In this document: positions 7,955 through 26,138 of the stretch, one piece after another
Layout: each line of letters opens with the position of its first letter
How positions within the stretch are numbered: the first letter of the stretch is position 1
Assembly (NCBI GenBank): GCA_964534245.1
Contig: CAZHQU010000002.1
Location: 1-35,142 of the forward strand
Direction: 5' to 3'
Origin: an uncultured Coprobacillus sp.
GTDB taxonomy: Bacteria; Bacillota_I; Bacilli_A; ML615J-28; CAG-698
Length of the DNA: 35,142 bases
Notes under the pieces: generated by a model
The model's input: the letters and a program-made list of their open reading frames with translations, nothing else
The model's database searches: none
What the model was told of the DNA's origin: nothing
Translations under genes and position numbers: made by a program

Positions 7955-7985
7955 AGAGTGAAAGTACTAACTTTCGCTCTTTTTT
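7955..7985 (+). terminator. Rho-independent terminator ending unit 1
   Basis: 10-bp stem AGAGTGAAAG / CTTTCGCTCT (one G-T pair), 6-nt loop, followed by TTTTT. Confidence 0.8.
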
Positions 7986-8109: not shown

Positions 8110-8138
8110 TTGAAAAAAAATGGCTTTTGTGCTATAAT
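8110..8138 (+). promoter_or_regulatory. SigA-type promoter with extended -10
   Basis: TTGAAA (8110-8115), 17-nt spacer, TGc-TATAAT (8130-8138). It lies 40 nt upstream of ATG 8178, which has an AGGAG RBS at 8167-8171. Confidence 0.65.
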
Positions 8139-10058: not shown

Positions 10059-10077
10059 TGAAAAGAGGAAAACAATA

Positions 10078-13000
10078 ATGAATAAAATTACTTATAATCC
10101 AAATTTAATGAAGAAATTAGTTTTAGGGTTAATTTGTTTATTATTAGTTGCTTGGTTAGCATATGCGATTATATCAAGCTATACTGATAAAGGACATATT
10201 ACTTCTAATTCAAGTGCTTCTTCATCAGAAATTCCAACGGGTTCTTATCAAAATTATATTAAATTAACAGCTGGAATTGAAGAATCTAAATTAGAATCAT
10301 TTGATATCAGCTATGTAACAGATGCAAATGAAGATAATCAATATTCTGCTATTTACAAAGATTATACAAGTACTAGACTTGAAAACGAAATCGTAATTGA
10401 TGGCAATGATGCAGAAGTTGAAGGTGAAAGCTCAGAATTAAATTGGCCAAGTACTGATGGTTATAAAGATATGTATGATAAATACTTAAATGGTGAAACT
10501 GGTGCTTATACTGATGAAACTGGTAAAGTTTCTTTCACTATTAAGGGAATTCAAAAAACAGGTTTTTATAATTTAATGATTAGTTACTTCATTCCTAAAG
10601 GAAAAGGCTCAGTATCTCAAAGAAAGATTTTAGTTAATGGTGAAGTTTTATTTGAAGAGTTATTAAACTATTCATTTGCTAGAGAGTATGAAGACAGTGC
10701 TGATAGTAAGGATGCTAATGGAAATTTCAAGACTGACGTTAATGGTAATGACTTAAAACCAAGTCAAACAGAAATCTTTGTTTATCATGAAGATGAATAT
10801 ATTCAAGATAGAACAGGTTATATTTCAAAACCTTATATGATTCTATTACAAGGTGGACAAGATAACGTTATTACTTTTGAAAGTGTTAAAGAAAATCTTC
10901 TTATTACTGAATTAAAAGTTTTAAGCATTGATTCTTACAACATTCCAACATATGAAGAATATATTGCTAAATATCAAAGCGAATTAAATAAACAAATGAC
11001 AATTAAAGATATAAGCACTTATAAGTACGAAAGTGAAGGTTCTGGTAGAACATCTACTACTCCTACATTATATCCTACTACTGATAGAACAAGCGCAACA
11101 AACTATCCAACTGACCCAGTTAGAACTAAGTATAATGCAATTGGTGGTTCAAAATGGACAACAGCTGGTGACTCTATCAGTTGGCAAATTACAGCTGAAG
11201 AAGCAGGTTTATATCAATTATCATTCCGTGCTAAACAAGATTTAGCTCGTGGTATGTTCGCAACAAGAAAACTTTATGTTGATGGTAAGCAACCATTTGC
11301 TGAAGCTGAAAACTTAAGATTCTATTATAACTCTGAATATAGCTTAGTTACATTAGGATCTGGTGAAGGCGAAGAACAAGAAACATATTATATCTACTTA
11401 GATGAAGGAACTCATACAATCACTTTACAAGCAACATTAGGTGATTATGCTTCTGCAATAAGTAGAGTTAACCAAGTTGTAGATAAATTAAATGCTATTT
11501 ATTTAAAGATTATTGCAATCACTACAACTAGCCCTGATGATTATACTGATTATGGTATTTATGGTGAAAACAGTCGTTTAGGTAATGATGAAGAAGGTAA
11601 TCCAATTGATGTTCAAAAAATCTTCTCTGATGCTGCGATTGAAATTAATTCTATTTCTCAATATATCACTGAATTAACAGGTGAAAAGAGTAGCTTAAAT
11701 AATGTATTGGATAAATTAGTATTACAAATCGGTGGTAAAGTGGATTATAATGGTGACGGCGAAGCTGAAGATGTTGGTGGATTTGCAACAAAACCTCGTA
11801 ATATTACTAAAGACTTAGCTGCATTCAAAACTAACTTATCATCATTAGGTACATGGGTACTTGATATTCAAGAACAATCTTTAACAATTGAATCATTCTA
11901 TGTTGCTCCAAAAGGTGCTGAACTTCCAAATGCTGAAGATAACTTCTTCAAAGGCTTATGGTTCAGTATTCGTGGATTCTTTGCTTCATTCTTCTTCGAC
12001 TATGAATCAATTGGAGTAATCGATACAGAAGGATTTGAAAGAGAAATCGAAGTTTGGTTCTTAACAAGTGAAACTTCAGGTCGTGAACAAGCAAACGTAT
12101 TAAAGAATTTAATTGATATGTACTTCACTTATGAAAGTGAACAAACAGAACAAGAAGTAGATAATTATAAAGATTATGATTGCAATGTAATATTAAAAGT
12201 ATTAGCTGCTGGTGTATTACTTCCTGCAACTCTTGCTGGAACTGGCCCAGACGTAGCAATCAACGTTGGTGAAGGTTTACCAATGAACTATGCACTTCGT
12301 GGTGCTGTATATGACTTAGAAAGATTTAATTATAGCGATTGGGATAATCCAAACTTAGTTAAAGGTGGCCCAACTGCTGCAAACTATACTGGTGATTTCG
12401 ATAAGGCTGTTGAAGAAAGATTCACTTCTGCTGAAATGGTTCCATTTAGATTAGATGACCAATTAGAAGATGGAACTCCAGTTACTGGTTATTATGGTTT
12501 CCCTAACACTGCTTCATTCTTAGTAATGTTCTATAGAACAGATATCTTTGAAGAAAATGGTTGGGAAGTTCCAAGAACATGGGATGATGTAATTGATTTA
12601 GCTAGAGAATTAAGTGTTATGAACTTAGGATTCTACATTCCATTTGAAGGTGCGGGTTCAACAATCTTTGCGACTTTATTATATCAAATGGGTGGTCAGT
12701 TCTACTTAGAAGATAATACAGCATGTGCATTTTCACAAGAAGTTGCTAAGAAAGCATTCGAACAATGGTGTAGCTATTTCTGTGATTATGGTTTTGATAA
12801 AGCTGCGAACTTTACAAACAGATTCCGTAGTGGTGAAATGCCAATTGGTATCTCTAGTTATACATTATATAATACATTAGCGGTATTCGCACCTGACATT
12901 GCTGGTAAATGGGCATTTGCACCATTACCTGGTATCGAACAAGAAGATGGAACAATTGAAAATACTGGTACTTTAACAATTACTTCATCTATTATTATGG

Positions 13001-13386
13001 AACAATCAGATGATCTAGAAGCGTCTTGGGCATTCTTAAAATGGTGGACATCAACTCCTGTTCAAGAAAAATATTCAATTGAAATTGAATCAATCTTAGG
13101 AAGTGGAGCTCGTCATAACACTGCTAATAGATACGCACTTGAAAGTTTACCATGGAGTGCAAGCGAATTAGAAACTTTAACTTCTCAATTTGATAATGCA
13201 TTCGGTATTCCTGAAGTGGCTGGTGGTTACTACATTAGTCGTAACTTAGAAAATGCTATTCGTGAAGTTATTAACAATGACTCAAATCCACGTGAAACAT
13301 TTGCTGAATATGTAGAATTAATCGACAGTGAAATTACACGTAAACGTGAAGAGTTTGAATTTAAACTTGCTGAGGAAAGTAGGTAG
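10078..13386 (+). CDS. Giant membrane-anchored extracellular solute-binding protein (1102 aa): N-terminal signal anchor, two CBM-like beta-sandwich modules, C-terminal family-1 sugar-binding domain
   Basis: TM segment LVLGLICLLLVAWLAYAII with no lipobox. Two CBM-style segments: TGFYNLMISYFIPKGKGSVSQRKILVNGEV and AGLYQLSFRAKQDLARGMFATRKLYVDGKQ. The C-terminal ~450 aa has a binding-protein signature (YRTDIFEENGWEVPRTWDDVIDLAREL). Confidence 0.7.
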   Translation: MNKITYNPNLMKKLVLGLICLLLVAWLAYAIISSYTDKGHITSNSSASSSEIPTGSYQNYIKLTAGIEESKLESFDISYVTDANEDNQYSAIYKDYTSTRLENEIVIDGNDAEVEGESSELNWPSTDGYKDMYDKYLNGETGAYTDETGKVSFTIKGIQKTGFYNLMISYFIPKGKGSVSQRKILVNGEVLFEELLNYSFAREYEDSADSKDANGNFKTDVNGNDLKPSQTEIFVYHEDEYIQDRTGYISKPYMILLQGGQDNVITFESVKENLLITELKVLSIDSYNIPTYEEYIAKYQSELNKQMTIKDISTYKYESEGSGRTSTTPTLYPTTDRTSATNYPTDPVRTKYNAIGGSKWTTAGDSISWQITAEEAGLYQLSFRAKQDLARGMFATRKLYVDGKQPFAEAENLRFYYNSEYSLVTLGSGEGEEQETYYIYLDEGTHTITLQATLGDYASAISRVNQVVDKLNAIYLKIIAITTTSPDDYTDYGIYGENSRLGNDEEGNPIDVQKIFSDAAIEINSISQYITELTGEKSSLNNVLDKLVLQIGGKVDYNGDGEAEDVGGFATKPRNITKDLAAFKTNLSSLGTWVLDIQEQSLTIESFYVAPKGAELPNAEDNFFKGLWFSIRGFFASFFFDYESIGVIDTEGFEREIEVWFLTSETSGREQANVLKNLIDMYFTYESEQTEQEVDNYKDYDCNVILKVLAAGVLLPATLAGTGPDVAINVGEGLPMNYALRGAVYDLERFNYSDWDNPNLVKGGPTAANYTGDFDKAVEERFTSAEMVPFRLDDQLEDGTPVTGYYGFPNTASFLVMFYRTDIFEENGWEVPRTWDDVIDLARELSVMNLGFYIPFEGAGSTIFATLLYQMGGQFYLEDNTACAFSQEVAKKAFEQWCSYFCDYGFDKAANFTNRFRSGEMPIGISSYTLYNTLAVFAPDIAGKWAFAPLPGIEQEDGTIENTGTLTITSSIIMEQSDDLEASWAFLKWWTSTPVQEKYSIEIESILGSGARHNTANRYALESLPWSASELETLTSQFDNAFGIPEVAGGYYISRNLENAIREVINNDSNPRETFAEYVELIDSEITRKREEFEFKLAEESR

Positions 13387-13394
13387 TTAACATT

Positions 13395-14384
13395 ATGGAA
13401 GTAAAGAACGAACAAAAACTAAACATTTTCCAAAAAATTAAAAAATGGTATTTAGAAAAACAACGTAAGATGGAAAATTGGAGTAAGAATGGTAAACCTA
13501 TACGTCGTAAATTATATTTGAATAGAAAATTATATTTAATGATGTTCCCTTATTTATTACTATTCTTTGTATTCACAATTCTTCCAGTTATAATCAGTTT
13601 CTTAATCAGTTTTACTGACTTTAACTTATTAGAATTTCCACCAAATTGGCGTGGATTTAGAAACTATTTAGACTTATTCTTAGAAGATACAATCTTTATA
13701 ATAGCTGTTAAAAACACATTGATTATTGCTGTTATCGTTGGTCCAGGTGGATATTTATTATCATTCGTATTTGCATGGTTAATCAATGAGTTACCAAGAT
13801 ATTTGAGAGCTGTAGTAACATTTATGTTCTACGCTCCAGCCTTAACGGGTGCCGTATCAATTTGGGCTTTAATCTTTAGTAGTGATATGTATGGATGGGC
13901 AAACTCATTATTAATTAATATGAATTTTATTCGTGAACCAATATTATTCTTAAAAGATACAGATTATATTTTACCAATTGTTATTGTAGTTCAATTATGG
14001 ACAAGCTTAGGTGTTAACTTCTTAACATTAATTGCTGGTCTTAAAGGTGTAAATAAAGAATTTTATGAAGCTGGTGCCATCGATGGTATCAGAAATAGAT
14101 GGCAAGAATTATGGTATATTACTTTACCATGTATTAAAGAACAATTATTATTTAGTGCCGTTATCCAAATTTCAAATACTCTTGGAGTAGGTGCAATTAC
14201 AACAGCACTTTGTGGATTCCCTTCAGTTGGTTATGCTGGTCATACAATTGTTAACCACTTAACTGACTACACTAGTACAAGATATGAATTAGGTTATGCT
14301 TCAGCAATAGCCACATTACTATTCGTAGCATCAATCGGATTAAATAGTTTAATTAGAAAAGTTATTAGAAAGGTAGGTTCTTAA
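13395..14384 (+). CDS. Sugar ABC transporter permease (MalF/LplB-like)
   Basis: Multiple TM segments and the EAA loop EAGAIDGIRNRWQELWYITLPCIK. Confidence 0.85.
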   Translation: MEVKNEQKLNIFQKIKKWYLEKQRKMENWSKNGKPIRRKLYLNRKLYLMMFPYLLLFFVFTILPVIISFLISFTDFNLLEFPPNWRGFRNYLDLFLEDTIFIIAVKNTLIIAVIVGPGGYLLSFVFAWLINELPRYLRAVVTFMFYAPALTGAVSIWALIFSSDMYGWANSLLINMNFIREPILFLKDTDYILPIVIVVQLWTSLGVNFLTLIAGLKGVNKEFYEAGAIDGIRNRWQELWYITLPCIKEQLLFSAVIQISNTLGVGAITTALCGFPSVGYAGHTIVNHLTDYTSTRYELGYASAIATLLFVASIGLNSLIRKVIRKVGS

Positions 14385-14386
14385 AA

Positions 14387-15373
14387 ATGGCTAAAGAAGT
14401 TAAACAAGCAAAGTCTTTTGAACAATTAGAACAAGAACGTTTACAGGCTAAGAACAATAAAAAGGCTCGCCATATAGATTCTCGACCTTTTGCTGAAATC
14501 TCGGATGCTAAATTAAAAAGAAGATCAAAAATTAAGAAACGTATAAATCGTTCAAAATTTGGGGATACAGTTTTATTCATCTTCCTTATCGGATCATCAA
14601 TCTTAAGTATTTTACCACTTATTATGATTGTAAATAATGCCTTCAAACCATTAGATGAAATTTTCCTATTCCCTCCAAAGATTTTCGTTATGAATCCAAC
14701 TCTTAATAACTTCGCTGACTTAGGAGTTGTACTTGGAACTTCACTTGTTCCATTCTCAAGATATTTATTCAATACTGTTTATGTAACTTTACTTGGTACA
14801 TTTGGACACGTAGTAGTTGCTTCAATGTGTTCGTATGTATTATCTAGATATAAAGTTCCTGGTGGTAAATTAATATTCTCATTAATCGTTTATGCATTAA
14901 TGTTCCCATCAAGTGTTACAGCAACTCCTAACTACATTATTTTAACTTATTTAGGATTAATTGATACACACTGGTCAATCGTATTACCAGTTATCGGTGG
15001 TACTATGGGTCTATTCTTAATGAAACAATTTATGGATCAAATTAGTATGGAATATATTGAATCAGCTAAACTAGATGGTGCTGGTGAATTTAGAATTTAT
15101 TGGACAATTGTTATGCCACTTGTAAAACCTGCTTGGATTACACTTGTTATCTTAAACTTCCAAAGTTTATGGAATACATATGGTTCAACAACAATTTATC
15201 GAGAAGACTTAAAGATGTTAAGTTACGCAATCAACCAAATTGCCTCTGCTGGTGTTGCTAGAACTGGTACATTAAATGCCGTTCAATTGGTTATGATTAC
15301 AGTTCCAATTGCCGTATTCATTTTCTCACAAAGTAATGTTATGGAAACAATGGCTCATTCAGGTATGAAGTAA
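14387..15373 (+). CDS. Carbohydrate ABC transporter permease (MalG/LplC-like) with a ~60-aa basic N-terminal extension
   Basis: EAA loop ESAKLDGAGEFRIYWTIVMPLVKP. It starts 2 nt after the upstream stop. Confidence 0.85.
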   Translation: MAKEVKQAKSFEQLEQERLQAKNNKKARHIDSRPFAEISDAKLKRRSKIKKRINRSKFGDTVLFIFLIGSSILSILPLIMIVNNAFKPLDEIFLFPPKIFVMNPTLNNFADLGVVLGTSLVPFSRYLFNTVYVTLLGTFGHVVVASMCSYVLSRYKVPGGKLIFSLIVYALMFPSSVTATPNYIILTYLGLIDTHWSIVLPVIGGTMGLFLMKQFMDQISMEYIESAKLDGAGEFRIYWTIVMPLVKPAWITLVILNFQSLWNTYGSTTIYREDLKMLSYAINQIASAGVARTGTLNAVQLVMITVPIAVFIFSQSNVMETMAHSGMK

Positions 15374-15383
15374 GAGGTGAAGT

Positions 15384-17156
15384 ATGAAGAAGATTATGAA
15401 AAAGTTTTTAATAATATTCTTATTTGTTGTATGTTTTAGTGTATCATTTAATGTATCTGCTGCAGGAGGTCATGGCGGTGGATACATGTATGATAGCGAT
15501 GGTCAATTAATTGAATCATCAGTTGGTTATACAGTTACTGAAGAAAATATTTATCATATTTTATCAGATGCTTGGATTAATGGATTTACATCAACAGAAG
15601 GTGTTATCGAATCTGAAATATTTAATAATCCAAGTGATATGTTCTTATACAAAGATGCTGAAACAGGTGAAGAAACAATTTATATTGTTGACTCAGGATC
15701 AAATTTTCTATTTATCTTTGATAAATCATTAAACTTTGTTAATAAATTTAGTACATTTGAAGTTGATCCTAGTGAATTCAGTATTCTTGAATTATCTAAG
15801 ATGAATACTTCAACAGATGGTAAAACAAAATCTGCTTTCTGGAATAGCAATAATAAAGCAAATTGGGAAAAAGTTAAAGATAATTGGGACGTTATTACTG
15901 AAACTAAATTTGAAGATCGTCAACCCGAAGAAAAATTCTCAATTAGTTGTTTAAATCTTTCAGGTGTATATCGTGCTTTAAGACCACTAAGAGATGAAAA
16001 TGGTAAAATCATTTTAAATGAAAATGAACAAACAGTTTATGAAGATGTTTTATATTTATGTGATGCTGGAAATCAACAAGTGGTTATTTTAGATTCAAAA
16101 ACTCTTAAAGTTAAACAAATTGTTTCTGCTCCTGAAAATGTAGACTTCACTTCAAAATTTCAACCAGTTAAAATGGTTACTGACTCAATGGGTAGAATGT
16201 ATATCATTTCTACAAACGTTTATGAAGGTATTCTATTAATGAACTATGATGGTACATTTATGACATTCGTTGGTGTTAACTATACTTCATTATCAGTTTG
16301 GGATGCTTTAAAGAGAAGTTGGAAAACTGAAGAACAATTAGCTCAAGAAACTACAATTTTACAAACATCATTTAACAATTTAACAATTGATAAAGATGGA
16401 TTCTTGTATACAGTTTCTGGTCCAGTTACAAATGTTGACGGATCAGTTAATACAGAAGCAATGATTAAGAAAATTAATCAAACTAATAAAGACGTATTAA
16501 AGAGAAATGGTTATTCTAAACCAATAGGTGACTTAATTACTATTAAGACTGGTGCTAATGCTGGTACAAGTAATTTCGTATCTATTACAATTAATGAATA
16601 TGGTGTATATACTGTAGCTGATACAAAAGGTAACAAATTATTTACATATGATAACGAAGGTAACTTATTATACATTTCTGGTGGTAGAGGTAGTCAAATT
16701 ACTAATATCAGTAATCCAGTAGCTATTACTTATCAAGGTGAAGATATTTTAGTTCTTGACAAAGGTAATAAATGTGTAATGCGTTATGAACCTACAGAAT
16801 TTGCTCAAAACATTAATAAAGCTGTTTATTATGAATATATTGGTGATTCAGCACATGCTGCTGATGAATGGCAAAACGTTATCAACAAAAACAACGCTTA
16901 TGAGTTAGCATATGTTGGTGTTGGTAAAAAGTATTATGATGAAAAGAGATATTTAGACGCAATGGAATATTTCAAGAATGGTTCAGATGTTAAATACTTC
17001 TCTAGAGCTTATAAGAATTATAGAGATGATATAATTGCTGAATACTTCCCATTTGTTGGTGGTGCTTTACTAGTATTAATCGGAGCAAATTATGCTTGGA
17101 AACTTGTTAAGAAAATTAAAGGAAAAAATCCTAAGTTTGAGGATGGTGAATTATAA
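15384..17156 (+). CDS. Secreted NHL-type beta-propeller repeat protein with a C-terminal TM anchor
   Basis: Signal peptide FLIIFLFVVCFSVSFNVSA|AGG. About 6 repeats of the type IYIVDSGSNFLFIFD, LYLCDAGNQQVVILD, MYIISTNVYEGILLMNYDG, VYTVADTKGNKLFTYDNEGN and ILVLDKGNKCVMRYEP. A TPR-like stretch is followed by the TM segment FPFVGGALLVLIGANYAWKL. Confidence 0.6.
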   Translation: MKKIMKKFLIIFLFVVCFSVSFNVSAAGGHGGGYMYDSDGQLIESSVGYTVTEENIYHILSDAWINGFTSTEGVIESEIFNNPSDMFLYKDAETGEETIYIVDSGSNFLFIFDKSLNFVNKFSTFEVDPSEFSILELSKMNTSTDGKTKSAFWNSNNKANWEKVKDNWDVITETKFEDRQPEEKFSISCLNLSGVYRALRPLRDENGKIILNENEQTVYEDVLYLCDAGNQQVVILDSKTLKVKQIVSAPENVDFTSKFQPVKMVTDSMGRMYIISTNVYEGILLMNYDGTFMTFVGVNYTSLSVWDALKRSWKTEEQLAQETTILQTSFNNLTIDKDGFLYTVSGPVTNVDGSVNTEAMIKKINQTNKDVLKRNGYSKPIGDLITIKTGANAGTSNFVSITINEYGVYTVADTKGNKLFTYDNEGNLLYISGGRGSQITNISNPVAITYQGEDILVLDKGNKCVMRYEPTEFAQNINKAVYYEYIGDSAHAADEWQNVINKNNAYELAYVGVGKKYYDEKRYLDAMEYFKNGSDVKYFSRAYKNYRDDIIAEYFPFVGGALLVLIGANYAWKLVKKIKGKNPKFEDGEL

Positions 17157-17860
17157 TGACTGGCACAGAAAATAAAACAATGAACCAATCAAAATTTTCT
17201 AAAGTTTGGCAAGTTATTTTAAAAGGATTAAAGATATTCAAAGAGGAATTTATTACTTATCCACTTTATATCTTAGCTCATCCTATTAAAGGATTTGATG
17301 ACTTTAAACGTGATAAAAAAGGAAAATTATGGGTAGCAATTACATTTATGTGCTTCTTAATTTTCTTAAACATTATGGAATATCAATACACTGGATTTAT
17401 TATTTCACAAGTTGATATTACTACATTAAACTCATTTAAAGAAATTGTATTAATTTTTGCTGTAGTATTAGTTATTACATTTGCAAACTGGAGTGTAACT
17501 ACTTTATTTGATGGCAAAGGTAAAGTTAAAGAGATTTTCTCAATGTTAGGTTATTGCTTGTTCCCATTATGTTGGGCTAAACTTATTGGTTTATTCATGA
17601 GTAACTTCTTAACTCAAAATGAAGCAGCATTATATAGCTTAACAATTGGATTAGGAATTTTCTTAATGTGTTATATGGGATTTTTTGGATTTATCAGTAT
17701 TCATGAATATGGTTTATTCAAATCAATCTTATCAATTTTAGGTACAATTCTTGCAATCTTAATTATTGCATTTATTGGTATATTAACATTCGACTTAGTG
17801 CAAAAGATGAGTGGATTTGTATATACAATCTACCAAGAAATTTCACTAAGATATCTGTAG
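17156..17860 (+). CDS. Yip1-like polytopic membrane protein (about 5 TM)
   Basis: 234 aa with five hydrophobic segments after a short cytoplasmic N-terminus. The ATG overlaps the upstream TAA (TAATG). The Yip1 assignment is from topology and size only. Confidence 0.5.
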   Translation: MTGTENKTMNQSKFSKVWQVILKGLKIFKEEFITYPLYILAHPIKGFDDFKRDKKGKLWVAITFMCFLIFLNIMEYQYTGFIISQVDITTLNSFKEIVLIFAVVLVITFANWSVTTLFDGKGKVKEIFSMLGYCLFPLCWAKLIGLFMSNFLTQNEAALYSLTIGLGIFLMCYMGFFGFISIHEYGLFKSILSILGTILAILIIAFIGILTFDLVQKMSGFVYTIYQEISLRYL

Positions 17861-17872
17861 GAGGTTGAGACT

Positions 17873-20800
17873 ATGAAATATAAAAATTTAAGACTTAGAA
17901 TAGTTCTTCCTTCAATTTTAATTGTAATAATTGTTGCTATGGTTGTTGCATTCTTCACTGGCGGATTAGAACTAGGTGCAATTACTAAAGATGACATTGA
18001 ATGGTCAGAAGAAGGATTTATTACTCCTGAATTACAACTTTTAGAGGATGGTTCTTCTAAATGGGTGTTCTATAAAACTAATGAAAAAGGTGAACAAGAG
18101 GCTGTAGATTTAAATAAAAATAGATTAGTTTCTGAACAAGGTAACTATAGAATGTATTTTGATGAAAGTACTACAATTATTACTATCAAAGAAATACTTC
18201 GTGATGCTGATGGAAATGAAACTGGTGAAAAAGAATTATATTCAACAGCAAAAGCAAATGGATCATCAAATGCTGAAAAATCAAGTATTACACTTTATTA
18301 CTATGATGCAAATGGTACATTAAACCCTGCATTCAACTCTTTTGATAAGAGTGTTAACTATGATAATACTTTAAAAGGTGTTAAAGAAAAACATTATTCA
18401 ATTAGATATAATGAAACAGATGGATCAATTGATTTATTATATCAAATTGGTAACTTTGCCAACCTTTTAGAAACATTCCCTAAGTATTACAATAGAGCTG
18501 ACTTCGAAGATACTTTTATGGGTAATATAATTATTCAATATACTTCTAGAAGTTATAATAGCATCCAAGTTGAAACGGCTGAAGGATTAGTAAACGCTAA
18601 AGAAATCGCTGTTGATTCTAAAAATGGTGGTTTAGCAGTATGTTTCGACAATGAATGTGCATTATACATTCTTAAAAATGGTTTAGGTACATTAAAATAT
18701 GAATATTCAGATGCTTCTTATAAACCTGCTTATGGTTCAACAGAAGAAGAAATTGCTGATACAACATTTGATTCTGTACCTGAAGATGAAGCCAAGATTT
18801 TAGAAAAATCTGGTGGTGTATGGTATGTATACAATATTGTTGATGAAAATGGAAAATTAAAATTTGTATTAGGTGAAAACTGTAATAATGGTTCTTCTCC
18901 AGTTAAATTAAATCCATTTCTAAATTCTGCTATATTCGTTGACTCAATTTTCAGTCAAGGTTATTATCCTATTAAATATGATTCTACAAATGAAGCTGGT
19001 GAAAAAGTAATTAAAGACTTATCTTATAAAGATAGATCTCAAGTTGAAGATGCATATTTACAATTCAATGCTAATACTTCATTACCTTCTCAAGAATTAT
19101 ATCAATATTTAGTAGTTGGTGGGTATTCATATTTAAGTACTTCACAAGAAATTTATAGTTATTTACAAGATGAAGATAAACCTGGTCAATTAAAAGTGTT
19201 AAACTCTGTAGTATTAACTCAAGGTTCTGAAAATGTATATTATGACTACAATGGTGATGGTACTATTACTTCAGATGAAGGCTATTTATTAGGTGGATAT
19301 CAAGCAAAAGACCCTCAAGGTAATTACTTATATATTGATGAAAATAATTATGTATTCTACTTCGATGCAAATGGAAATAGAATGTTAAATGATGAAGAAG
19401 GCAATCCACAACCTGTTGATAGTACTTCTGCTTATAAACCTTTCCAAACTGGTTTAACATCTGAAATGACACAAACTCAAAATGATAGATACAATGTTGG
19501 TGCTGAAGCATCTTCTGTTGCTTTTCAAGTGGCATTAAGATACAAATTAACTGAAAATGGAATGGAAGTTACTATTATTAATGATAGTATTATTGAAGGT
19601 TTAGGTAAGGATGCTGATTCTGCTGTTACTCCTGCTCAATTCAAACATGATTGTAAAATTGCTAAGATTGAAGTTAATAAATTCTTAACTACAAATAATG
19701 ATTCATCAAGCGTTGGTAGCATTGTTATTCCTGATGGAAGTGGTGCTGTTATCTCATTTAACAGTGCTAAAGTTAAGCAATACGTTGATATGTATAAAGA
19801 AAAATTCATCTATGGTGCTGATATGGCAATTAATAGAGATGAAGCTGGAAATAAAGTACAAGATATTTTATTACCAATGTATGCATTTATAGAAGATGGA
19901 GATAATGGAGCTAAATCTAAAGGTGTATCTATTACTGCTATCGTAGAAAAAGGTGCCGCTCAAACATCTATTACTGCTGACTTCATGCGTTCAAGTGAGC
20001 TAAGTGGTATGAACCCATATAACTATGCGTATTTCACTTCTTACTTCCGTAGCAGTGAAAGTGTAAGTATTACTTCAAGTTCAAGTTATACTAAGATTAG
20101 TGAGGCTTTATATGATTCAGATATTAAATATGTTTACAGAATCCTTACTAATAAAGATTTAGGTAAAGGATATGATGAAAATGGTAATTATAATCCAATT
20201 AATTATGTAGATATCGCTCAAGATTATCGTGCATATTTGGTTGATTTATATGATTTATCAGAAAAAGATGAAACTAAAGTTGCTACTCCAACAATCACAT
20301 TTGTTGGTGCGTATGAAAAGAAAACTATCAAACTGGGTGTTGTTTATGATAAAGAATATGCATTAACAACATTTGAAGAAGCTGGTAAGATCGTTGATGA
20401 ATTAACTAATAAAGGAATTTCATCGATGAATGTAACTTATACTTTATGGACTGATGATGAAAAATATAATAAGATTTCTGACGAATTTAAAGTATCAAGT
20501 GTTCTAGGCGGTAAAAATGATTTAGAAGATTTAAATAACAAGCTAACTAATTATAAATATAATTTCTTCTTAGATTATACATTTACTACTGGATTTGGAT
20601 ATGATTATTCATTTGGTGCCTTAAAATTTAACTCTAAGTCTATTTCTGGTGCTCAATCTAACGCTTTAAGTTATGTATTATCTACTGGCTTAGCTGATGC
20701 ACAAGGAAAAGTTGGTGGAAGATTATCTCCAGTGTTCTATAACTCATTAGTAACTAAGTTTATGAAGAATTATGGAAAATTAAATATTAATGGTATTAAT

Positions 20801-21445
20801 GTTACTGATTTAGGTAATAGAAATTCATCTGACTACTCTAAAGATAGAATAATTTATTCTGCTGATGGTTCTTTATATCAAGTAGAAGCTCTTAAGACTC
20901 TTTCTGAAAGTGGTAAGAAAGTAATGTTAGAATCACCATTTGATTATGCGTTCAAGTATCTTGATATCGCTACAAATGTTCCTGTTGAGACTACATTATA
21001 TCCAATCGTTGATTACTCAATTCCATTCTATCAATTAGTTGTAAGTGGATTATTTGATTACTCAGCTCCAACAATTAACTCTGGTAATGATTACAGTGTT
21101 GATTGGAACTTATTAAAAGCTATTGAAACTGGTTCTAATATTGCATTTGAAGTTTCTTCAAGTGATACAATTAACTTATTAGATACTGATTATACTAGTT
21201 ATTACAATTCATATTTCTCTAACTGGGAAGATAAGATTTTGTCAATGAATGAAAAATTACAAAAGACTGGTATCTATGAAAGTAAATTAGTTAACCATGA
21301 ATTTATTACTGATACATTAGTTAAAGTTACTTATAACAATGGTTTAGAAATCTTAATTAACTATAGTAAAGATAATTATTATGGTGATGGTTTAGCTATT
21401 CGTTCATATGATTTTGCTATCTTAAAACAAGGAAAGGAGGCATAA
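17873..21445 (+). CDS. 1190-aa N-terminally membrane-anchored extracellular protein of unknown function
   Basis: AGGAGG RBS and TM anchor IVLPSILIVIIVAMVVAFF. I recognise no catalytic motif. From memory, the architecture recalls the DUF5696-type proteins found next to Yip1 genes in sugar-ABC loci, but I cannot verify this here. Confidence 0.5.
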   Translation: MKYKNLRLRIVLPSILIVIIVAMVVAFFTGGLELGAITKDDIEWSEEGFITPELQLLEDGSSKWVFYKTNEKGEQEAVDLNKNRLVSEQGNYRMYFDESTTIITIKEILRDADGNETGEKELYSTAKANGSSNAEKSSITLYYYDANGTLNPAFNSFDKSVNYDNTLKGVKEKHYSIRYNETDGSIDLLYQIGNFANLLETFPKYYNRADFEDTFMGNIIIQYTSRSYNSIQVETAEGLVNAKEIAVDSKNGGLAVCFDNECALYILKNGLGTLKYEYSDASYKPAYGSTEEEIADTTFDSVPEDEAKILEKSGGVWYVYNIVDENGKLKFVLGENCNNGSSPVKLNPFLNSAIFVDSIFSQGYYPIKYDSTNEAGEKVIKDLSYKDRSQVEDAYLQFNANTSLPSQELYQYLVVGGYSYLSTSQEIYSYLQDEDKPGQLKVLNSVVLTQGSENVYYDYNGDGTITSDEGYLLGGYQAKDPQGNYLYIDENNYVFYFDANGNRMLNDEEGNPQPVDSTSAYKPFQTGLTSEMTQTQNDRYNVGAEASSVAFQVALRYKLTENGMEVTIINDSIIEGLGKDADSAVTPAQFKHDCKIAKIEVNKFLTTNNDSSSVGSIVIPDGSGAVISFNSAKVKQYVDMYKEKFIYGADMAINRDEAGNKVQDILLPMYAFIEDGDNGAKSKGVSITAIVEKGAAQTSITADFMRSSELSGMNPYNYAYFTSYFRSSESVSITSSSSYTKISEALYDSDIKYVYRILTNKDLGKGYDENGNYNPINYVDIAQDYRAYLVDLYDLSEKDETKVATPTITFVGAYEKKTIKLGVVYDKEYALTTFEEAGKIVDELTNKGISSMNVTYTLWTDDEKYNKISDEFKVSSVLGGKNDLEDLNNKLTNYKYNFFLDYTFTTGFGYDYSFGALKFNSKSISGAQSNALSYVLSTGLADAQGKVGGRLSPVFYNSLVTKFMKNYGKLNINGINVTDLGNRNSSDYSKDRIIYSADGSLYQVEALKTLSESGKKVMLESPFDYAFKYLDIATNVPVETTLYPIVDYSIPFYQLVVSGLFDYSAPTINSGNDYSVDWNLLKAIETGSNIAFEVSSSDTINLLDTDYTSYYNSYFSNWEDKILSMNEKLQKTGIYESKLVNHEFITDTLVKVTYNNGLEILINYSKDNYYGDGLAIRSYDFAILKQGKEA

Positions 21446-21448
21446 TAA

Positions 21449-22723
21449 ATGAAGGAAAATTTTATTAAGAAAATATTTGATGTTATCCTTACAGTTTTAA
21501 ATGCAATATTTGGTGTTTTTGCATATGCCTTTAAAGGTTTAGGATTTGTTTTAAAATACATATGGAAAGGTATTTCTTGGTTATTTATCACTATTGGTAA
21601 AGGTGTGCATGTTGTTATAAAGAAAGTATTTGTTCCTTGTATTAATGCAATTAGTAATTTATTTAAAGCAATTGGAAATGCAATTAATAAAGTTTATCTT
21701 AAACTTACTAATGGTGGTACTGATAAGGGCGATATTAAAGAAGGAACTCAAAAGAAGAATTTCATTTCTAGATTTCTTTCAACAAAGCTTACTTATCATA
21801 AACGTCAAGCATTATGGGGATATGTATTTATCACACCATTAATCATCGGATTTATTTATTTCTTCTTATTTCCATTTATTACTACTGTAGTATTCAGTTT
21901 CTCTAACATCTATCGTGCCGGTGTTATTAATAGCACTAACGAAACATTAGGTGTTGTTACTGAGTGGGTAGGATTTGAAAACTATAAATATATTTGGAGT
22001 GTTCATGCAACATTCAAAGAAACATTAGGTAATGTATTTGTTGATACATTATTAAATGTATTATTAATCTTAATTTTTAGTTTAATTATTGCTGTTGTAT
22101 TAAATTCTAACTTCAAAGGTCGTTCATTCGTTAGAGCCGTATTCTTCATGCCAGTTATTTTCAACTCTCAAGCAGTTGAATTAGCTATGAGTAAAGGAAC
22201 AGCACTTACTGATGCAATGGAACAAGAAGGACAAACAGTATTTTCAGCAGTGTTTAACTTTGCGGATTTCTTAACAGAAGCAAATTTACCTGTTACAGCA
22301 GTTAATTTCTTAACTAATGCTTCTGATTCAATCTTCGATGTAATTTCTTATTCAGGTGTACAAATTCTGATCTTCTTATCAGCAATTCAATCAGTTCCAA
22401 AACACTTATATGAAGCTGCTAAAATTGAAGGTGCTACACAATATGAAATTTTCTGGAAGATTACTTTCCCTATGGTATCACCTCTGATGCTGACAGCTGG
22501 GGTATATACTGTAGTTGACTCATTCTTGAGGTCTGATTTATTATCATTAATGGATAAATTTGCTATAGCAAACGATGATTTCCCATATACATTAGGTTTA
22601 GGTAACTTGACACATGATGGTATCTATGCAGCAATGTCTATGTTATTCTGTCTAGTAAGTTTAGCTGTAGTAGTAATCGTTATATTAGCAATAAGAAAGT
22701 TGGTGTTCTATCATGACGAATAA
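21449..22723 (+). CDS. Sugar ABC transporter permease (MalF-like) with a ~115-aa N-terminal extension carrying extra TM segments
   Basis: EAA loop EAAKIEGATQYEIFWKITFPMVSP. An AAGGAGG RBS lies upstream. Confidence 0.85.
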   Translation: MKENFIKKIFDVILTVLNAIFGVFAYAFKGLGFVLKYIWKGISWLFITIGKGVHVVIKKVFVPCINAISNLFKAIGNAINKVYLKLTNGGTDKGDIKEGTQKKNFISRFLSTKLTYHKRQALWGYVFITPLIIGFIYFFLFPFITTVVFSFSNIYRAGVINSTNETLGVVTEWVGFENYKYIWSVHATFKETLGNVFVDTLLNVLLILIFSLIIAVVLNSNFKGRSFVRAVFFMPVIFNSQAVELAMSKGTALTDAMEQEGQTVFSAVFNFADFLTEANLPVTAVNFLTNASDSIFDVISYSGVQILIFLSAIQSVPKHLYEAAKIEGATQYEIFWKITFPMVSPLMLTAGVYTVVDSFLRSDLLSLMDKFAIANDDFPYTLGLGNLTHDGIYAAMSMLFCLVSLAVVVIVILAIRKLVFYHDE

Positions 22724-23726
22724 TCAAGAAGTTCAAACATTTGCATCTATTTTAAAAGACCCAATTAGAAGAAAAGTATTCTTTGGTAAAATACTTATGT
22801 TTGCTGGTAAGTTATTAAGAGCTATCTTATTATTAGGTTTATGCTTTGTAATCTTACTTCCAATCATTGAAAAGCTATCTGCAGCTTTAAGACATCCTAC
22901 GGATATCGCGAATAATCAAGTTGTATGGATTCCTGCTCAATTTAGTATTATTAACTTCCAAGTAGCTGCTGAGATGCTTAATTATACTGAGTCATTCTTT
23001 AACTCTCTTATACTTTCTACTATAACTACTATTATCCAAGTTATAGCTACAGCGATTGCTGGTTACGCATTTGCAAGATTAAAATTCAAAGGCAATAGTT
23101 TAATATTCTATATTATATTATTTACATTAATCGTTCCAAATGAAGCCCTAGATAGATCAAGAAATTGGATCATGAATGAAACTACTTTTTTAGGCATTTC
23201 ATTAATTGGTAACATTTTCTCAATGTATATCTTAGCAGCATTTGGTCAAGGTATTCGTTCAGCAATTTTTATCTTCTTGTTCAGACAATTCTTCAAAGGT
23301 ATTCCTATTGAATTAGAAGAATCTGCACAAGTAGATGGTGCAGGAGTAATTAGAACATTCTGGTCTGTTATGCTTCCAAATGCACGTGGTGCTATCGTAA
23401 CAGTTGCATTATTCGCATTTGTATGGCAATGGAATGACTGTTACTTCGGTCAATTATTAGGTTATACATCAGGAAATATGTCATTACTTGCTGTTCAATT
23501 AAGTACTGGTACAGAACAATTAAGAACTGTTATTGCAACATGGATTGCAGCTGGTAATCCTGTATTAGAATCATTCTTAGGAAGTGGTGTAGCAACTGAC
23601 CCATTATTTACAGCATTAATTGCTAATACTTCAGCATTAATGATAATGGCACCATTATTAATCGGTTACTTCTTCGTACAAAAACTATTTGTTGAAAGTA
23701 TTGAAAGAACTGGTCTTGTTGGATAA
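22713..23726 (+). CDS. Carbohydrate ABC transporter permease (MalG-like)
   Basis: EAA loop ESAQVDGAGVIRTFWSVMLPNARG. It overlaps the upstream gene by 11 nt. Confidence 0.85.
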   Translation: MTNNQEVQTFASILKDPIRRKVFFGKILMFAGKLLRAILLLGLCFVILLPIIEKLSAALRHPTDIANNQVVWIPAQFSIINFQVAAEMLNYTESFFNSLILSTITTIIQVIATAIAGYAFARLKFKGNSLIFYIILFTLIVPNEALDRSRNWIMNETTFLGISLIGNIFSMYILAAFGQGIRSAIFIFLFRQFFKGIPIELEESAQVDGAGVIRTFWSVMLPNARGAIVTVALFAFVWQWNDCYFGQLLGYTSGNMSLLAVQLSTGTEQLRTVIATWIAAGNPVLESFLGSGVATDPLFTALIANTSALMIMAPLLIGYFFVQKLFVESIERTGLVG

Positions 23727-23736
23727 TTAAATTTAT

Positions 23737-23770
23737 GGTGCTACAAGTAATTTGTAGCACCTCTTTATTT
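23737..23770 (+). terminator. Rho-independent terminator ending unit 2
   Basis: Stem GGTGCTACAA / TTGTAGCACC, 5-nt loop, then a T-rich tail CTCTTTATTT. Confidence 0.8.
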
Positions 23771-23786
23771 AGATGAGAATTAAATT

Positions 23787-25352: not shown

Positions 25353-25412
25353 TAGGTATATAATATAATTATTAAAATTTTAAATATATAAAATAAATTA
25401 AGGAGAAAGAAA

Positions 25413-26138
25413 ATGAAAATCGTTGTTGTTAAAGATTATGAAGAAATGAGCTTAAAAGCTAGTGAAATTATCGTTGAATTATTAAAAGAAAAGTCAGATG
25501 CTACTTTAGGTTTAGCTACTGGTAGTAGTCCAATTGGAATTTATCAAAACTTAATTAAGAAATATCAAGCTGGTGAAATCTCTTTCAAAGATGTTACTAC
25601 TTATAACTTAGATGAATATTGTGAATTACCAAGATCTCATCCAGAAAGTTATTATTCATTTATGCATAGAAACTTATTCAGTCAAATTGATATTAACGAA
25701 GCTAATGTTAATATTCCTTGTTCTGAAGGTGATGATTTAGAAGCATTATGTAAAGAATACAATGATAAATTAAATAGTGCTAGTGTTGATTTACAACTAT
25801 TAGGAATTGGTGCAAATGGACATATCGGATTTAATGAACCAAATACTCCATTTTCTCAAGAAACATTTATTGTTAAATTAACTGAGAAAACAAGATTAGA
25901 TAATCAAAGATTCTTTAATTCTTTAGATGAAGTTCCAAAGTTTGCTATGACAATGGGTATTAAAAACATTATGAATTCTAAGAAGATTTTATTAGTTGCT
26001 AGTGGTAAGAATAAAGCTGAAGCTGTTAAGAAATTAGCTAGTGGTGTTGTTACTGAAGAATTTCCAGCATCTATATTAAATAATCATAAAGATGTAATCG
26101 TATTTGTTGATGAAGAAGCTGCTGAATTAATTAAATAA
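25413..26138 (+). CDS. nagB: Glucosamine-6-phosphate deaminase
   Basis: LGLATGSSP and GIGANGHIGFNEP motifs, 241 aa, with an AAGGAG RBS. Confidence 0.9.
   Translation: MKIVVVKDYEEMSLKASEIIVELLKEKSDATLGLATGSSPIGIYQNLIKKYQAGEISFKDVTTYNLDEYCELPRSHPESYYSFMHRNLFSQIDINEANVNIPCSEGDDLEALCKEYNDKLNSASVDLQLLGIGANGHIGFNEPNTPFSQETFIVKLTEKTRLDNQRFFNSLDEVPKFAMTMGIKNIMNSKKILLVASGKNKAEAVKKLASGVVTEEFPASILNNHKDVIVFVDEEAAELIK

What the first reader, a model, noticed from the sequence alone, without database searches (positions are those of the whole stretch)
10078..23726. Atypical 13.6-kb sugar-ABC cassette: giant binding protein, two permease pairs, and three non-transporter envelope proteins between them, with no ATPase
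The gene order is: 1102-aa anchored binding protein, MalF-like, MalG-like, secreted NHL propeller with C-terminal TM, Yip1-like 5-TM protein, 1190-aa anchored exoprotein, MalF-like (with an extra N-terminal TM module), MalG-like. Gaps are 2-12 nt or the genes overlap (TAATG at 17156; 11-nt overlap at 22713). The whole cassette lies between one strong promoter (8110) and one terminator (23737). This argues for co-translation and a stoichiometric assembly rather than a casual neighbourhood. A canonical CUT1 importer needs one binding protein and one permease pair. Here the propeller, Yip1-like protein and giant protein are wedged between two pairs. All three have membrane anchors, so they could dock onto the permeases. 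I interpret this as a possible cell-surface capture, processing and import machine for a large glycan (peptidoglycan or another GlcNAc polymer, given the flanking genes), functionally analogous to a Gram-positive PUL. The accessory proteins have no assigned function that I know of.
Basis: partly seen in the sequence, partly recalled or inferred. Interest (0 to 1): 0.8.

Follow-up and report, generated by a model that had tools for sequence, protein, structure and literature searches.

The report
Conserved eight-gene glycan uptake cassette
This is a real, tightly packed eight-gene unit, kept in the same order in every related Bacillota locus examined, that joins two sugar ABC-importer channels to a giant sugar-binding protein, a hidden glycosidase-like surface protein and a propeller–Yip1 membrane protein; I found no paper on it.

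Summary
No ABC ATPase is encoded in the window.

The embedded genes pass the synteny test. All 49 DUF5696-seeded genome loci with enough contig, plus three loci seeded from the binding protein, carry giant SBP–P1–P2–propeller–Yip1–DUF5696–P3–P4 in that order, even at about 22% identity. In nine of these 52 loci the propeller and Yip1 are fused into one protein.

The 1190-aa protein belongs to Pfam DUF5696. I show it is a remote GH129 homologue by profile against PDB sequences (E=7e-12) and by Foldseek (E=2e-23). It is therefore a cryptic, membrane-anchored glycosidase-like protein. Its catalytic residues could not be mapped.

Two corrections apply. A cytoplasmic GH20 gene shares the transcription unit. 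The system also has more than one binding protein: two Big_2–SBP lipoproteins lie downstream (27130–33305), and a second SBP accompanies the cassette in most lineages.

Flanking enzymes differ between lineages, so the cassette is a generic module. Here they point to peptidoglycan fragments.

My best reading is a surface capture, cleavage and two-lane import module, powered by a shared ATPase encoded elsewhere. It is a new variant of a known kind and is uncharacterised in the searchable literature.

The parts
7955..7980 (+). Terminator-like hairpin that closes the upstream unit
   Evidence: 11-pair stem followed by a T-run
8110..8138 (+). Sigma-70-type promoter-like site (TTGAAA-17-TATAAT with extended TG)
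   Evidence: 11/12 matches, the best site in 6700-26200. This is a consensus match only.
8178..10058 (+). GH20-family hexosaminidase-like protein, predicted cytoplasmic, first gene of the unit
   Evidence: Glyco_hydro_20 and 20b hits, no hydrophobic segment. Conserved upstream of the cassette in the window's clade.
10078..13386 (+). Giant TM-anchored binding protein: N-terminal TM, CBM35-like region, helical region, then a C-terminal family-1 SBP domain
   Evidence: SBP_bac_1/8 at aa 690-1001. CBM_35 scores 22 bits here and 33 bits, above the cut-off, in homologue P0094. The nearest PDB sequences are sugar SBPs (Lin1841, 5ysb).
13395..14384 (+). P1, a MalF/UgpA-like permease with an EAA loop (EAGAIDG)
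14387..15373 (+). P2, a MalG/UgpE-like permease with an EAA loop
15384..17156 (+). Secreted six-bladed NHL beta-propeller with TPR-like helices and a C-terminal TM
   Evidence: The model has pLDDT 75, and Foldseek matches TRIM-NHL, Pizza and Vgb propellers at E down to 5e-13.
17156..17860 (+). Yip1-domain 5-TM membrane protein; its start overlaps the propeller's stop codon (TAATG)
   Evidence: It is fused to the propeller in nine related loci.
17873..21445 (+). TM-anchored DUF5696 protein: a clade-specific N-terminal beta-rich module (aa 40-545), then a beta-sandwich, an irregular (beta/alpha)8 barrel and a C-terminal sandwich. It is a remote GH129 homologue.
21449..22723 (+). P3, a MalF-like permease with an N-terminal hydrophobic extension and an EAA loop
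   Evidence: The extension is specific to this clade (lengths).
22713..23726 (+). P4, a MalG-like permease with an EAA loop; it overlaps P3 by 11 nt
23737..23761 (+). Terminator-like hairpin
23787..25352 (+). GH3 NagZ-like beta-N-acetylhexosaminidase, predicted cytoplasmic
   Evidence: (205.5 bits against a cut-off of 207). Conserved downstream in the clade.
25413..26138 (+). NagB, glucosamine-6-phosphate deaminase
   Evidence: TIGR00502, 300.7 bits against a cut-off of 236.9
26144..27133 (+). Two-domain GNAT acetyltransferase, conserved downstream partner in the clade
27130..30090 (+). Lipoprotein (LVFVGC lipobox) with six Big_2 repeats and a C-terminal SBP-like domain; candidate second binding protein
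   Evidence: (E=8e-10 to the small SBP beside the Lederbergia cassette)
30282..33305 (+). Paralogue of the preceding Big_2-SBP lipoprotein
   Evidence: 41% identity over 805 aa
40..6710 (+). Upstream catabolic genes: LysA-M19 dipeptidase fusion, PBP4B/AmpH-like protein, GNAT, LdcA-like S66 peptidase and GHL10
   Evidence: GHL10 is conserved upstream in several relatives.

Best explanation
The eight genes form a conserved glycan-acquisition module of Bacillota.

What is shown: it encodes two complete type-I (CUT1-like) ABC importer membrane channels, P1P2 and P3P4. All four permeases carry the EAA coupling loop.

Proposed mechanism (inferred):
1. The giant TM-anchored binding protein holds a polymer or large oligosaccharide at the surface through its CBM35-like N-terminal half. 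Its C-terminal SBP domain feeds one channel.
2. The TM-anchored DUF5696 protein, a remote relative of GH129/GH101 retaining alpha-glycosidases, trims or cleaves the captured glycan next to the membrane.
3. The products enter through the two channels. The second channel is served by the smaller SBP lipoproteins encoded nearby.
4. Both channels are energised by an MsmK/MsmX-type ATPase encoded elsewhere, as is usual for CUT1 systems of Bacillota.
5. The NHL propeller and the Yip1 5-TM protein act as one unit. This unit is a membrane-embedded accessory or scaffold of the transporter, by analogy with YknW, the Yip1-family subunit of the ABC transporter YknWXYZ.

In this window's lineage the cargo is probably GlcNAc/MurNAc-containing peptidoglycan fragments. 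Inside the cell these would be dismantled by GH20, the NagZ-like GH3, NagB, the LdcA-like peptidase and the LysA-dipeptidase fusion. In other lineages the same module serves other glycans.

Shown versus inferred: the gene content, order, conservation, topology, folds and homologies are shown. Catalysis, ligand, direction of hand-over, physical complex and energising ATPase are inferred.
For: Structure and signals.

Strict conservation of content and order: 42 complete cassettes plus 7 with a fusion make 49/49 informative loci. The 8 others are cut by contig ends. The same cassette appears when sampling from the giant SBP instead, and the divergent protein in the DUF5696 slot of L065 is confirmed by hhalign.

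Each permease is its own orthologue group at a fixed position. P1/P3 share 22% identity and P2/P4 share 28%, so the pairs are anciently distinct.

Median intergenic gaps run from -11 to +12 nt across loci.

Propeller-Yip1 fusions occur in Paenibacillus/Cohnella and in Oscillospirales-type loci.

DUF5696 resembles GH129/GH101/GH36/GH31. Foldseek gives E=1.7e-23 to 5opq and 5e-20 to 5wzr. The A2 profile hits ZgGH129 at E=7.4e-12 and NagBb at about 6e-6.

A CBM35-like module is present in the giant SBPs.

A second SBP lies beside the cassette in 37 of 48 loci.

CAZyme or catabolic neighbours are present in every lineage examined.

Precedents from papers: Yip1-family YknW as an ABC-transporter accessory (PMC4887032). 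A shared MsmK ATPase is reported for Streptococcus suis (abstract of PMC4519317, listed).
Against: No catalytic pair could be assigned in DUF5696. The barrel half that carries the nucleophile and acid/base in GH129/GH101 gives no sequence match. The candidate acidic residues are not invariant: D987 34/40, D1047 34/40, D979 26/40. Only N1069 and E1085 are invariant there.

All characterised structural relatives are alpha-glycosidases. The flanking genes imply beta-linked substrates here, and quite different polymers elsewhere.

Nothing here tests physical association of DUF5696 or propeller-Yip1 with the permeases.

The small SBPs could in principle be sensors rather than transport partners.

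Promoter and terminator calls are consensus matches only.

About 4 of 48 loci with adequate flanks show no second SBP.
Confidence: 0.6

Rival explanations
1. DUF5696 has lost or never had hydrolytic activity. It would act as a membrane-tethered lectin or scaffold that presents glycans to the transporters or organises them. The real depolymerases would be encoded elsewhere.
For: The catalytic half of the barrel is unrecognisable by sequence. No strictly invariant Asp/Glu pair sits at the expected strand ends. The same protein is kept alongside very different CAZyme sets.
Against: Several strictly conserved polar and aromatic residues suggest a conserved pocket. They are P620-D/E621-G622-x-G624, Y647, T832, N1069 and E1085. 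D987 and D1047 are present in 85% of members. In several Bacillales loci no recognisable GH gene was seen among the flanking ORFs that were scanned.
Confidence: 0.22
2. The cassette is simply two ordinary, independent CUT1 importers plus unrelated surface proteins. They would be kept together only by co-regulation, with no complex and no functional coupling between the embedded genes and the permeases.
For: Each permease pair can be matched to its own SBP type. Gram-positive sugar loci commonly mix transporters and surface enzymes. No direct evidence of interaction exists.
Against: The interleaved order is invariant in 52/52 loci at 21-26% identity, with near-zero gaps. DUF5696 was never seen without all four permeases in the informative sampled loci. 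Loose co-regulated neighbourhoods normally shuffle over such evolutionary distances.
Confidence: 0.15
3. The propeller-Yip1 unit is a sensor or gate rather than a scaffold. An extracellular NHL propeller, as in the PknD sensor domain, would detect the glycan and regulate transporter activity.
For: Foldseek hits include Pizza proteins, which from my own knowledge derive from the PknD sensor propeller, and ligand-binding NHL domains. No transcription regulator occurs among ORFs of 100 aa or more in the window.
Against: The protein has no kinase, HTH or other output domain, and only a short cytoplasmic tail. The only characterised bacterial Yip1 protein modulates transporter assembly.
Confidence: 0.12
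4. The module recycles the cell's own envelope glycans rather than foraging on external ones.
For: Peptidoglycan-recycling-type genes flank it here.
Against: The cassette, with GH20, GH3 and NagB, occurs in records titled Acholeplasmataceae, Acholeplasma or Tenericutes, lineages that from general knowledge lack a wall. The cassette also occurs in an Izemoplasmatales record. Other lineages pair it with xylanases, pectinases or a mannosidase.
Confidence: 0.08

Closest known systems
CUT1-family (MalFGK2 / UgpAEC-type) type-I ABC sugar importers of Bacillota that share an orphan ATPase (MsmK/MsmX)
   Same: There are four BPD_transp_1 permeases in MalF-like/MalG-like pairs, each with an EAA loop. 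There are family-1 SBP domains. No ATPase gene lies in the locus.
   Different: Two ancient, non-interchangeable permease pairs sit in one operon. One SBP is about 1,000 aa, TM-anchored and fused to CBM35-like modules. Three obligatory non-transporter membrane proteins lie between the pairs.
GH129 (NagBb alpha-N-acetylgalactosaminidase; ZgGH129 3,6-anhydro-D-galactosidase) and GH101 endo-alpha-N-acetylgalactosaminidases
   Same: The architecture is the same: a beta-sandwich, an irregular (beta/alpha)8 barrel and a C-terminal sandwich. Homology is detectable by profile (E=7e-12) and by fold (E=2e-23). PMC8106489 describes the GH101 catalytic domain as a 'partially broken' barrel and the NagBb (GH129) catalytic domain as similar to it.
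   Different: Identity is about 12%. No Pfam GH model matches. The catalytic half is not alignable. The protein has an N-terminal TM anchor. It is always encoded between Yip1 and a permease pair.
YknW of the four-component ABC transporter YknWXYZ (Bacillus)
   Same: It is a bacterial Yip1-family polytopic membrane protein encoded with, and required for or modulating the assembly of, an ABC transporter (PMC4887032).
   Different: YknWXYZ is a MacB-type exporter with a membrane-fusion protein. Here the partners are type-I importers, and Yip1 is coupled, sometimes fused, to an extracellular NHL propeller.
Gram-positive polysaccharide utilisation loci (gpPULs)
   Same: An ABC importer is co-localised with surface-anchored and cytoplasmic glycoside hydrolases for one glycan.
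   Different: gpPULs vary in content and order. This module is a fixed eight-gene core that is re-used with different CAZyme sets. No regulator lies in the 35-kb window.

Membership tests
Type-I ABC importer (CUT1-like) | Two BPD_transp_1 transmembrane subunits with an EAA coupling loop | tested here: met
   all four permeases qualify, giving two pairs
Type-I ABC importer (CUT1-like) | Extracytoplasmic family-1 solute-binding protein | tested here: met
   (giant SBP). (Big_2-SBP lipoproteins, which match by homology to small SBPs and not by Pfam).
Type-I ABC importer (CUT1-like) | Cognate ABC ATPase | tested here: not met
   none in the window, and no CUT1-type ATPase within 10 kb in any of the L001-L061 loci. 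A shared orphan ATPase is assumed from what is known of Bacillota.
Pfam DUF5696 (PF18952) | Score above the gathering threshold | tested here: met
   409.9 bits against 25.6, covering aa 533-1181
GH129 / GH101 glycoside hydrolases | Sequence membership (family model or significant similarity) | tested here: inconclusive
   No Pfam GH hit at E<=10. Profile A1 found nothing in the PDB. The broader profile A2 hits GH129 chains at 7e-12 and 6e-6 over three partial stretches. This supports remote homology, not family membership.
GH129 / GH101 glycoside hydrolases | Beta-sandwich plus irregular (beta/alpha)8 barrel fold | tested here: met
   (model pLDDT 75, pTM 0.70; the top 11 hits are GH129, followed by GH101, GH36 and GH31)
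GH129 / GH101 glycoside hydrolases | Conserved Asp nucleophile and Glu/Asp acid-base on the barrel | tested here: inconclusive
   the candidates D979, D987, D1047 and E1085 could not be mapped because no coordinates were available and that half has no alignment
Yip1 domain family (PF04893), YknW-like ABC accessory | Yip1 domain with about 5 TM helices | tested here: met
   (56.8 bits against 28.6)
Yip1 domain family (PF04893), YknW-like ABC accessory | Physical and functional association with an ABC transporter | not testable with these tools
   The only evidence is invariant gene adjacency
NHL six-bladed beta-propeller | NHL repeats and propeller fold | tested here: met
   Pfam NHL is only marginal. 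PDB sequence hits to TRIM NHL domains reach 1e-6. Foldseek gives 5e-13.
Gram-positive PUL | Transporter plus CAZymes co-localised | tested here: met
Gram-positive PUL | Locus-specific transcriptional regulator | tested here: not met
   No HTH or two-component domain occurs among ORFs of 100 aa or more in the window, and there is no Rfam element
Peptidoglycan / muropeptide catabolic locus | NagZ, LdcA-type peptidase, NagB, DAP-handling enzyme | tested here: met
   NagB and LysA score above their equivalog cut-offs. NagZ falls just below its cut-off and the LdcA-like protein well below its cut-off (146 against 378 bits).
Peptidoglycan / muropeptide catabolic locus | MurNAc-specific steps (MurQ etherase, MurNAc-L-Ala amidase, NamZ/MupG) | tested here: not met
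   None occurs in the window. NamZ and a GH3-MupG fusion are present in relative L002.

The most novel reading that the evidence does not exclude
The cassette encodes one supercomplex of a kind not described before. In it the GH129-like DUF5696, which occupies the gene slot normally held by a binding protein directly upstream of P3P4, would hand its cleavage product straight to that channel. The propeller-Yip1 unit would bridge the two permease pairs. The result would be an enzyme-coupled, two-channel ABC importer for glycans too large or too insoluble for a classical SBP cycle, a Gram-positive functional counterpart of SusCD-type machines.
Probability: 0.15. Interest if true: 0.85.

Novelty: new variant of a known kind. 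Interest (0 to 1): 0.62.

Why it matters
The DUF5696 family is large. It has about 4,960 representatives at 50% clustering, and in every informative locus sampled it sits in this one fixed cassette. Carriers include gut Lachnospiraceae and Coprobacillus, soil Paenibacillus, and records titled Acholeplasmataceae, a lineage that from general knowledge lacks a cell wall.

No paper in the searchable library mentions the family or the arrangement.

If the model holds, four things follow:
- It defines a widespread, modular glycan-uptake engine of Gram-positive bacteria.
- It assigns a probable enzymatic fold to a DUF.
- It gives bacterial Yip1 proteins a second transporter-linked role.
- In this lineage it points to scavenging of other bacteria's cell walls.

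Cultivable carriers exist, so the model is directly testable.

Tried and rejected
- Profile A1 (16 close DUF5696 sequences) against PDB sequences gave no hit at E<=10. Only the broader profile A2 found GH129.
- Scanning all A1 members against Pfam at E<=10 gave no GH family.
- Profile A4, restricted to the second half of the barrel, gave no GH129 or GH101 hit, so catalytic residues could not be transferred.
- Model coordinates are not exposed to the sandbox. Spatial clustering of the conserved residues could therefore not be checked.
- I tried length co-variation of P3 with DUF5696 as a hint of contact. It was rejected because all cassette proteins co-vary in length (rho 0.33-0.84). That is a clade effect.
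- Nine literature searches were run on DUF5696, PF18952, Yip1 with ABC, SBP, PUL or Paenibacillus terms, NHL with permease, multiple permease pairs, and GH129/GH101. None found a paper on the cassette. They yielded only the YknW precedent and GH129/GH101 background.
- Rfam found no regulatory RNA.
- I considered the 378-aa ORF at 33464-34600 as a possible MsmX-type ATPase. It is a DDE transposase.
- I considered chance neighbourhood and rejected it on 52/52 synteny.
- I considered the small SBPs as sensor components of three-component systems. No histidine kinase or response regulator was seen beside them in the loci scanned, so transport partners are favoured, but this is not proven.

Full report
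**1. The observation.** The window is about 30% G+C and almost every gene lies on the + strand.

The junctions are 8, 2, 10, -1 (TAATG), 12, 3 and -11 nt.

Pfam and NCBIfam give these assignments:
- a 1102-aa protein with a family-1 SBP domain at aa 690-1001 and a weak CBM35 signal near its N-terminus;
- two MalF/UgpA-like and two MalG/UgpE-like BPD_transp_1 permeases;
- a 590-aa protein with marginal NHL repeats;
- a Yip1-domain protein;
- a 1190-aa protein that is a strong member of Pfam DUF5696 (410 bits).

Hydropathy shows an N-terminal anchor on the giant SBP and on DUF5696. The propeller has a signal peptide plus a C-terminal TM, Yip1 has five TMs, and P3 has an extra N-terminal hydrophobic segment. 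All four permeases keep the EAA coupling loop.

The best promoter-like site of the region is at 8110-8138. Terminator-like hairpins lie at 7955-7980 and 23737-23761. These are consensus matches, not evidence of transcription.

No ABC ATPase is encoded in the window. The 378-aa ORF at its right end is a DDE transposase.

Two corrections are needed. First, the promoter precedes a cytoplasmic GH20 gene at 8178-10058, so the predicted unit has nine genes. Second, the system is not limited to one binding protein, as section 3 shows.

**2. Is the arrangement meaningful?** I used the DUF5696 protein to collect homologues and scanned one genome per species. That gave 57 loci from these groups:
- Coprobacillus;
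- many 'Bacilli' MAGs;
- Acholeplasmataceae, Izemoplasmatales and 'Tenericutes';
- Paenibacillus, Cohnella, Lederbergia, Halalkalibacter and Gracilibacillus;
- Lachnospiraceae, including Acetatifactor, Herbinix and Mobilitalea, plus Clostridium sp. KNHs205;
- Ruminococcaceae and Oscillospiraceae.

I mapped the window's proteins onto all ORFs of these loci. The order giant SBP-P1-P2-propeller-Yip1-DUF5696-P3-P4 is complete in 42 loci. It is complete with a propeller-Yip1 fusion in 7 more. The remaining 8 loci are cut by contig ends, so 49 of 49 informative loci carry the cassette.

Each of the four permeases always finds its best match at its own position. P1 and P3 share only 22% identity, and P2 and P4 share 28%. 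The two pairs are therefore ancient and not interchangeable.

Median intergenic distances across loci run from -11 to +12 nt. These values rest on longest-ORF start calls.

Sampling from the giant SBP instead of DUF5696 gave the same cassette three times out of three. Two of those loci have NHL-TPR-Yip1 fusions. The unannotated 999-aa protein in the DUF5696 slot of L065 is a divergent DUF5696 by hhalign (probability 100%, E=1e-91).

The fusions were verified by domain-level hits, with propeller aa 222-581 followed by Yip1 aa 16/33-233. They fit the predicted topology: propeller outside, then a TM, then Yip1 starting in the cytoplasm.

The cassette is a unit.

**3. A second binding protein.** In Bacillales an ordinary 440-490-aa SBP sits immediately upstream of the giant SBP. 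In Lachnospiraceae one sits immediately downstream of P4.

The window's two 'Big_2' giants (27130-30090 and 30282-33305) are lipoproteins with an LVFVGC lipobox. Their C-terminal 430 aa or so are homologous to those small SBPs (E=8e-10). They are paralogues of each other. Such a protein follows GH3-NagB(-GNAT) throughout the window's clade.

Overall, 37 of 48 complete loci show a second SBP within the retrieved flanks. Most of the exceptions have flanks that are too short.

The parts list is therefore two SBP types, two permease pairs, propeller-Yip1 and DUF5696.

**4. What DUF5696 is.** An AlphaFold2 model built on 16 homologues has pLDDT 75 and pTM 0.70. It shows these elements in order:
- a TM helix;
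- a beta-rich N-terminal module (aa 40-545) that is largely specific to this clade, since other clades' proteins are 780-890 aa;
- a beta-sandwich;
- an irregular (beta/alpha)8 barrel;
- a C-terminal sandwich.

Foldseek against the PDB puts GH129 first: ZgGH129 5opq at E=1.7e-23 and NagBb 5wzr at 5e-20. GH101, GH36 and GH31 enzymes follow, at about 12% identity.

Sequence methods initially saw nothing. A profile of 40 diverse family members then hit ZgGH129 at E=7.4e-12 and NagBb at about 6e-6. The hit has three collinear stretches: the first strands of the sandwich, the linker plus the first barrel strands, and the C-terminal sandwich. DUF5696 is thus a remote homologue of GH129, not merely a look-alike.

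It is not a member of that family by any curated model. The barrel half that carries the catalytic residues in GH129/GH101 gives no match.

Conservation across 40 sequences is as follows:
- Invariant: P620, G622, G624, Y647, Y778, A782, T832, G879, G981, P1051, N1069, E1085 and G1087.
- Position 621 is always acidic.
- D650 is present in 36/40, D987 in 34/40, D1047 in 34/40 and D979 in 26/40.

Catalytic competence is therefore plausible but unproven.

The family is large, with 4,962 representatives at 50% clustering at E<=1e-3.

**5. The propeller and Yip1.** The 590-aa protein models (pLDDT 75) as a six-bladed NHL propeller with an inserted helical segment. TPR-like helices and a long TM helix follow. 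The best structural matches are TRIM-NHL domains, the designed 'Pizza' propellers and virginiamycin B lyase. These give no specific enzymatic signal.

The only characterised bacterial Yip1-family protein I could find is YknW. It is an accessory subunit that modulates assembly of the ABC transporter YknWXYZ (PMC4887032). That is a precedent for a transporter-accessory role, but in a MacB-type exporter.

**6. Context and substrate.** In this window and its clade the cassette lies among genes for amino-sugar and peptidoglycan-peptide catabolism:
- a LysA (above the equivalog cut-off) fused to an M19 dipeptidase;
- a PBP4B/AmpH-like protein;
- an LdcA-like S66 peptidase;
- GHL10;
- a cytoplasmic GH20;
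- a NagZ-like GH3;
- NagB (above the cut-off);
- GNATs.

A relative adds NamZ and a GH3-MupG fusion. The inference is that this lineage imports GlcNAc/MurNAc-containing wall fragments.

Other lineages differ:
- Clostridium sp. KNHs205 has GH10, GH43, an esterase and GH8.
- Acetatifactor has GH28 and GH10.
- Paenibacillus phytorum has a GH20-like protein and GH38.
- Another locus has a SASA esterase and a Pel9A-like lyase.
- In the two Bacillales loci whose flanks I scanned, the neighbours checked were not CAZymes.

The cassette is therefore a generic module re-used for different glycans.

This creates an unexplained tension. All characterised structural relatives of DUF5696 are retaining alpha-glycosidases, whereas the neighbouring enzymes mostly imply beta-linked backbones.

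**7. Mechanism.** I commit to the following model, at about 0.6 overall:
1. The CBM35-bearing giant SBP captures glycan at the surface.
2. The GH129-like DUF5696 trims it next to the membrane.
3. The products are imported through two channels, each with its own SBP type.
4. An orphan MsmK/MsmX-type ATPase supplies the energy.
5. Propeller-Yip1 acts as a membrane accessory or scaffold.

The content, order, conservation, topology, folds and homologies are shown. Catalysis, ligands, pairing of SBPs with channels, complex formation and the ATPase are inferred.

The rivals are a non-catalytic DUF5696 (0.22), mere co-regulated neighbours (0.15), a sensor or gate role for propeller-Yip1 (0.12) and autologous wall recycling (0.08). 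The last is disfavoured because the cassette occurs in records titled Acholeplasmataceae, Acholeplasma or Tenericutes, lineages that from general knowledge lack a wall.

**8. Novelty.** The components belong to known kinds: CUT1 permeases and SBPs, a GH129-like fold, an NHL propeller and a Yip1 domain. DUF5696 is already catalogued in Pfam, and these genes are annotated piecemeal in genomes.

What appears undescribed is the fixed eight-gene architecture, the GH129 relationship of DUF5696, the propeller-Yip1 unit with its fusions, and the module's re-use across substrates. Nine full-text searches found nothing on any of these. That library lacks most subscription-journal papers.

I rate it a new variant of a known kind, with interest 0.62. 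It would surprise specialists moderately and is readily testable in cultivable carriers. The most novel reading not excluded is an enzyme-coupled two-channel importer supercomplex (probability about 0.15).

Noticed in passing
window 40-2256: Single ORF that fuses a diaminopimelate decarboxylase (LysA, TIGR01048, 412 bits, above the equivalog cut-off) to an M19 membrane-dipeptidase domain. This is an unusual fusion and suggests coupled breakdown of DAP-containing stem peptides.
   Followed up: partly
window 33317-34934: IS-like element at the right end of the locus. It has a DDE transposase (33464-34600, minus strand) flanked by imperfect 44-nt inverted repeats (33317-33360 and 34891-34934).
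   Followed up: partly
L010, L014, L016, L020, L021 (with GH20/GH3/NagB-type flanks); L035, L039, L060 (cassette with other flanks): The cassette occurs in MAGs titled Acholeplasmataceae, Acholeplasma, Izemoplasmatales or Tenericutes. In L010, L014, L016, L020 and L021 it is accompanied by GH20, GH3 and/or NagB genes. From general knowledge Acholeplasmataceae and other Tenericutes lack a wall. This hints that they scavenge other organisms' amino-sugar polymers.
   Followed up: no
P0019-P0023; locus L062 1854-4163: Stand-alone proteins of about 767 aa carry a Flg_new (Listeria-Bacteroides) repeat plus the N-terminal module of about 560 aa of the window's DUF5696 protein (43% identity) but no barrel. 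They lie next to Peptidase_C39_2 proteins. The N-terminal module is therefore an independent, mobile domain of unknown function.
   Followed up: partly
L017, L019, L022: Contigs titled 'uncultured Bacteroidales' carry a locus organised exactly like those of the Bacilli MAGs. They are probably mis-binned contigs.
   Followed up: no
L002 21397-23630: A relative's locus continues with NamZ (exo-N-acetylmuramidase family) and a GH3-MupG fusion protein. This strengthens the MurNAc/peptidoglycan reading for this clade.
   Followed up: no
window 27130-33305: The tandem Big_2-SBP lipoprotein paralogues are 76% identical over their first 108 aa but only about 41% identical over the rest. This suggests gene conversion or strong constraint on the signal/lipobox and the first Ig domain.
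   Followed up: no
window 1-35142: No transcription regulator domain occurs among ORFs of 100 aa or more, and no Rfam family matches, in a 35-kb, almost entirely co-directional catabolic island. How the locus is regulated is not evident.
   Followed up: partly
window 5379-6710; L035 19176-21638; L039; L060: GHL10 (PF02638, a hypothetical glycoside-hydrolase-like family) recurs near the cassette in distant lineages. It is a 443-aa form here and forms of about 820 aa in the Acholeplasmataceae and Izemoplasmatales loci.
   Followed up: no
window 14365-14772 (minus strand): A 135-aa antisense ORF overlaps the P1/P2 junction. It was not examined further and is probably spurious.
   Followed up: no
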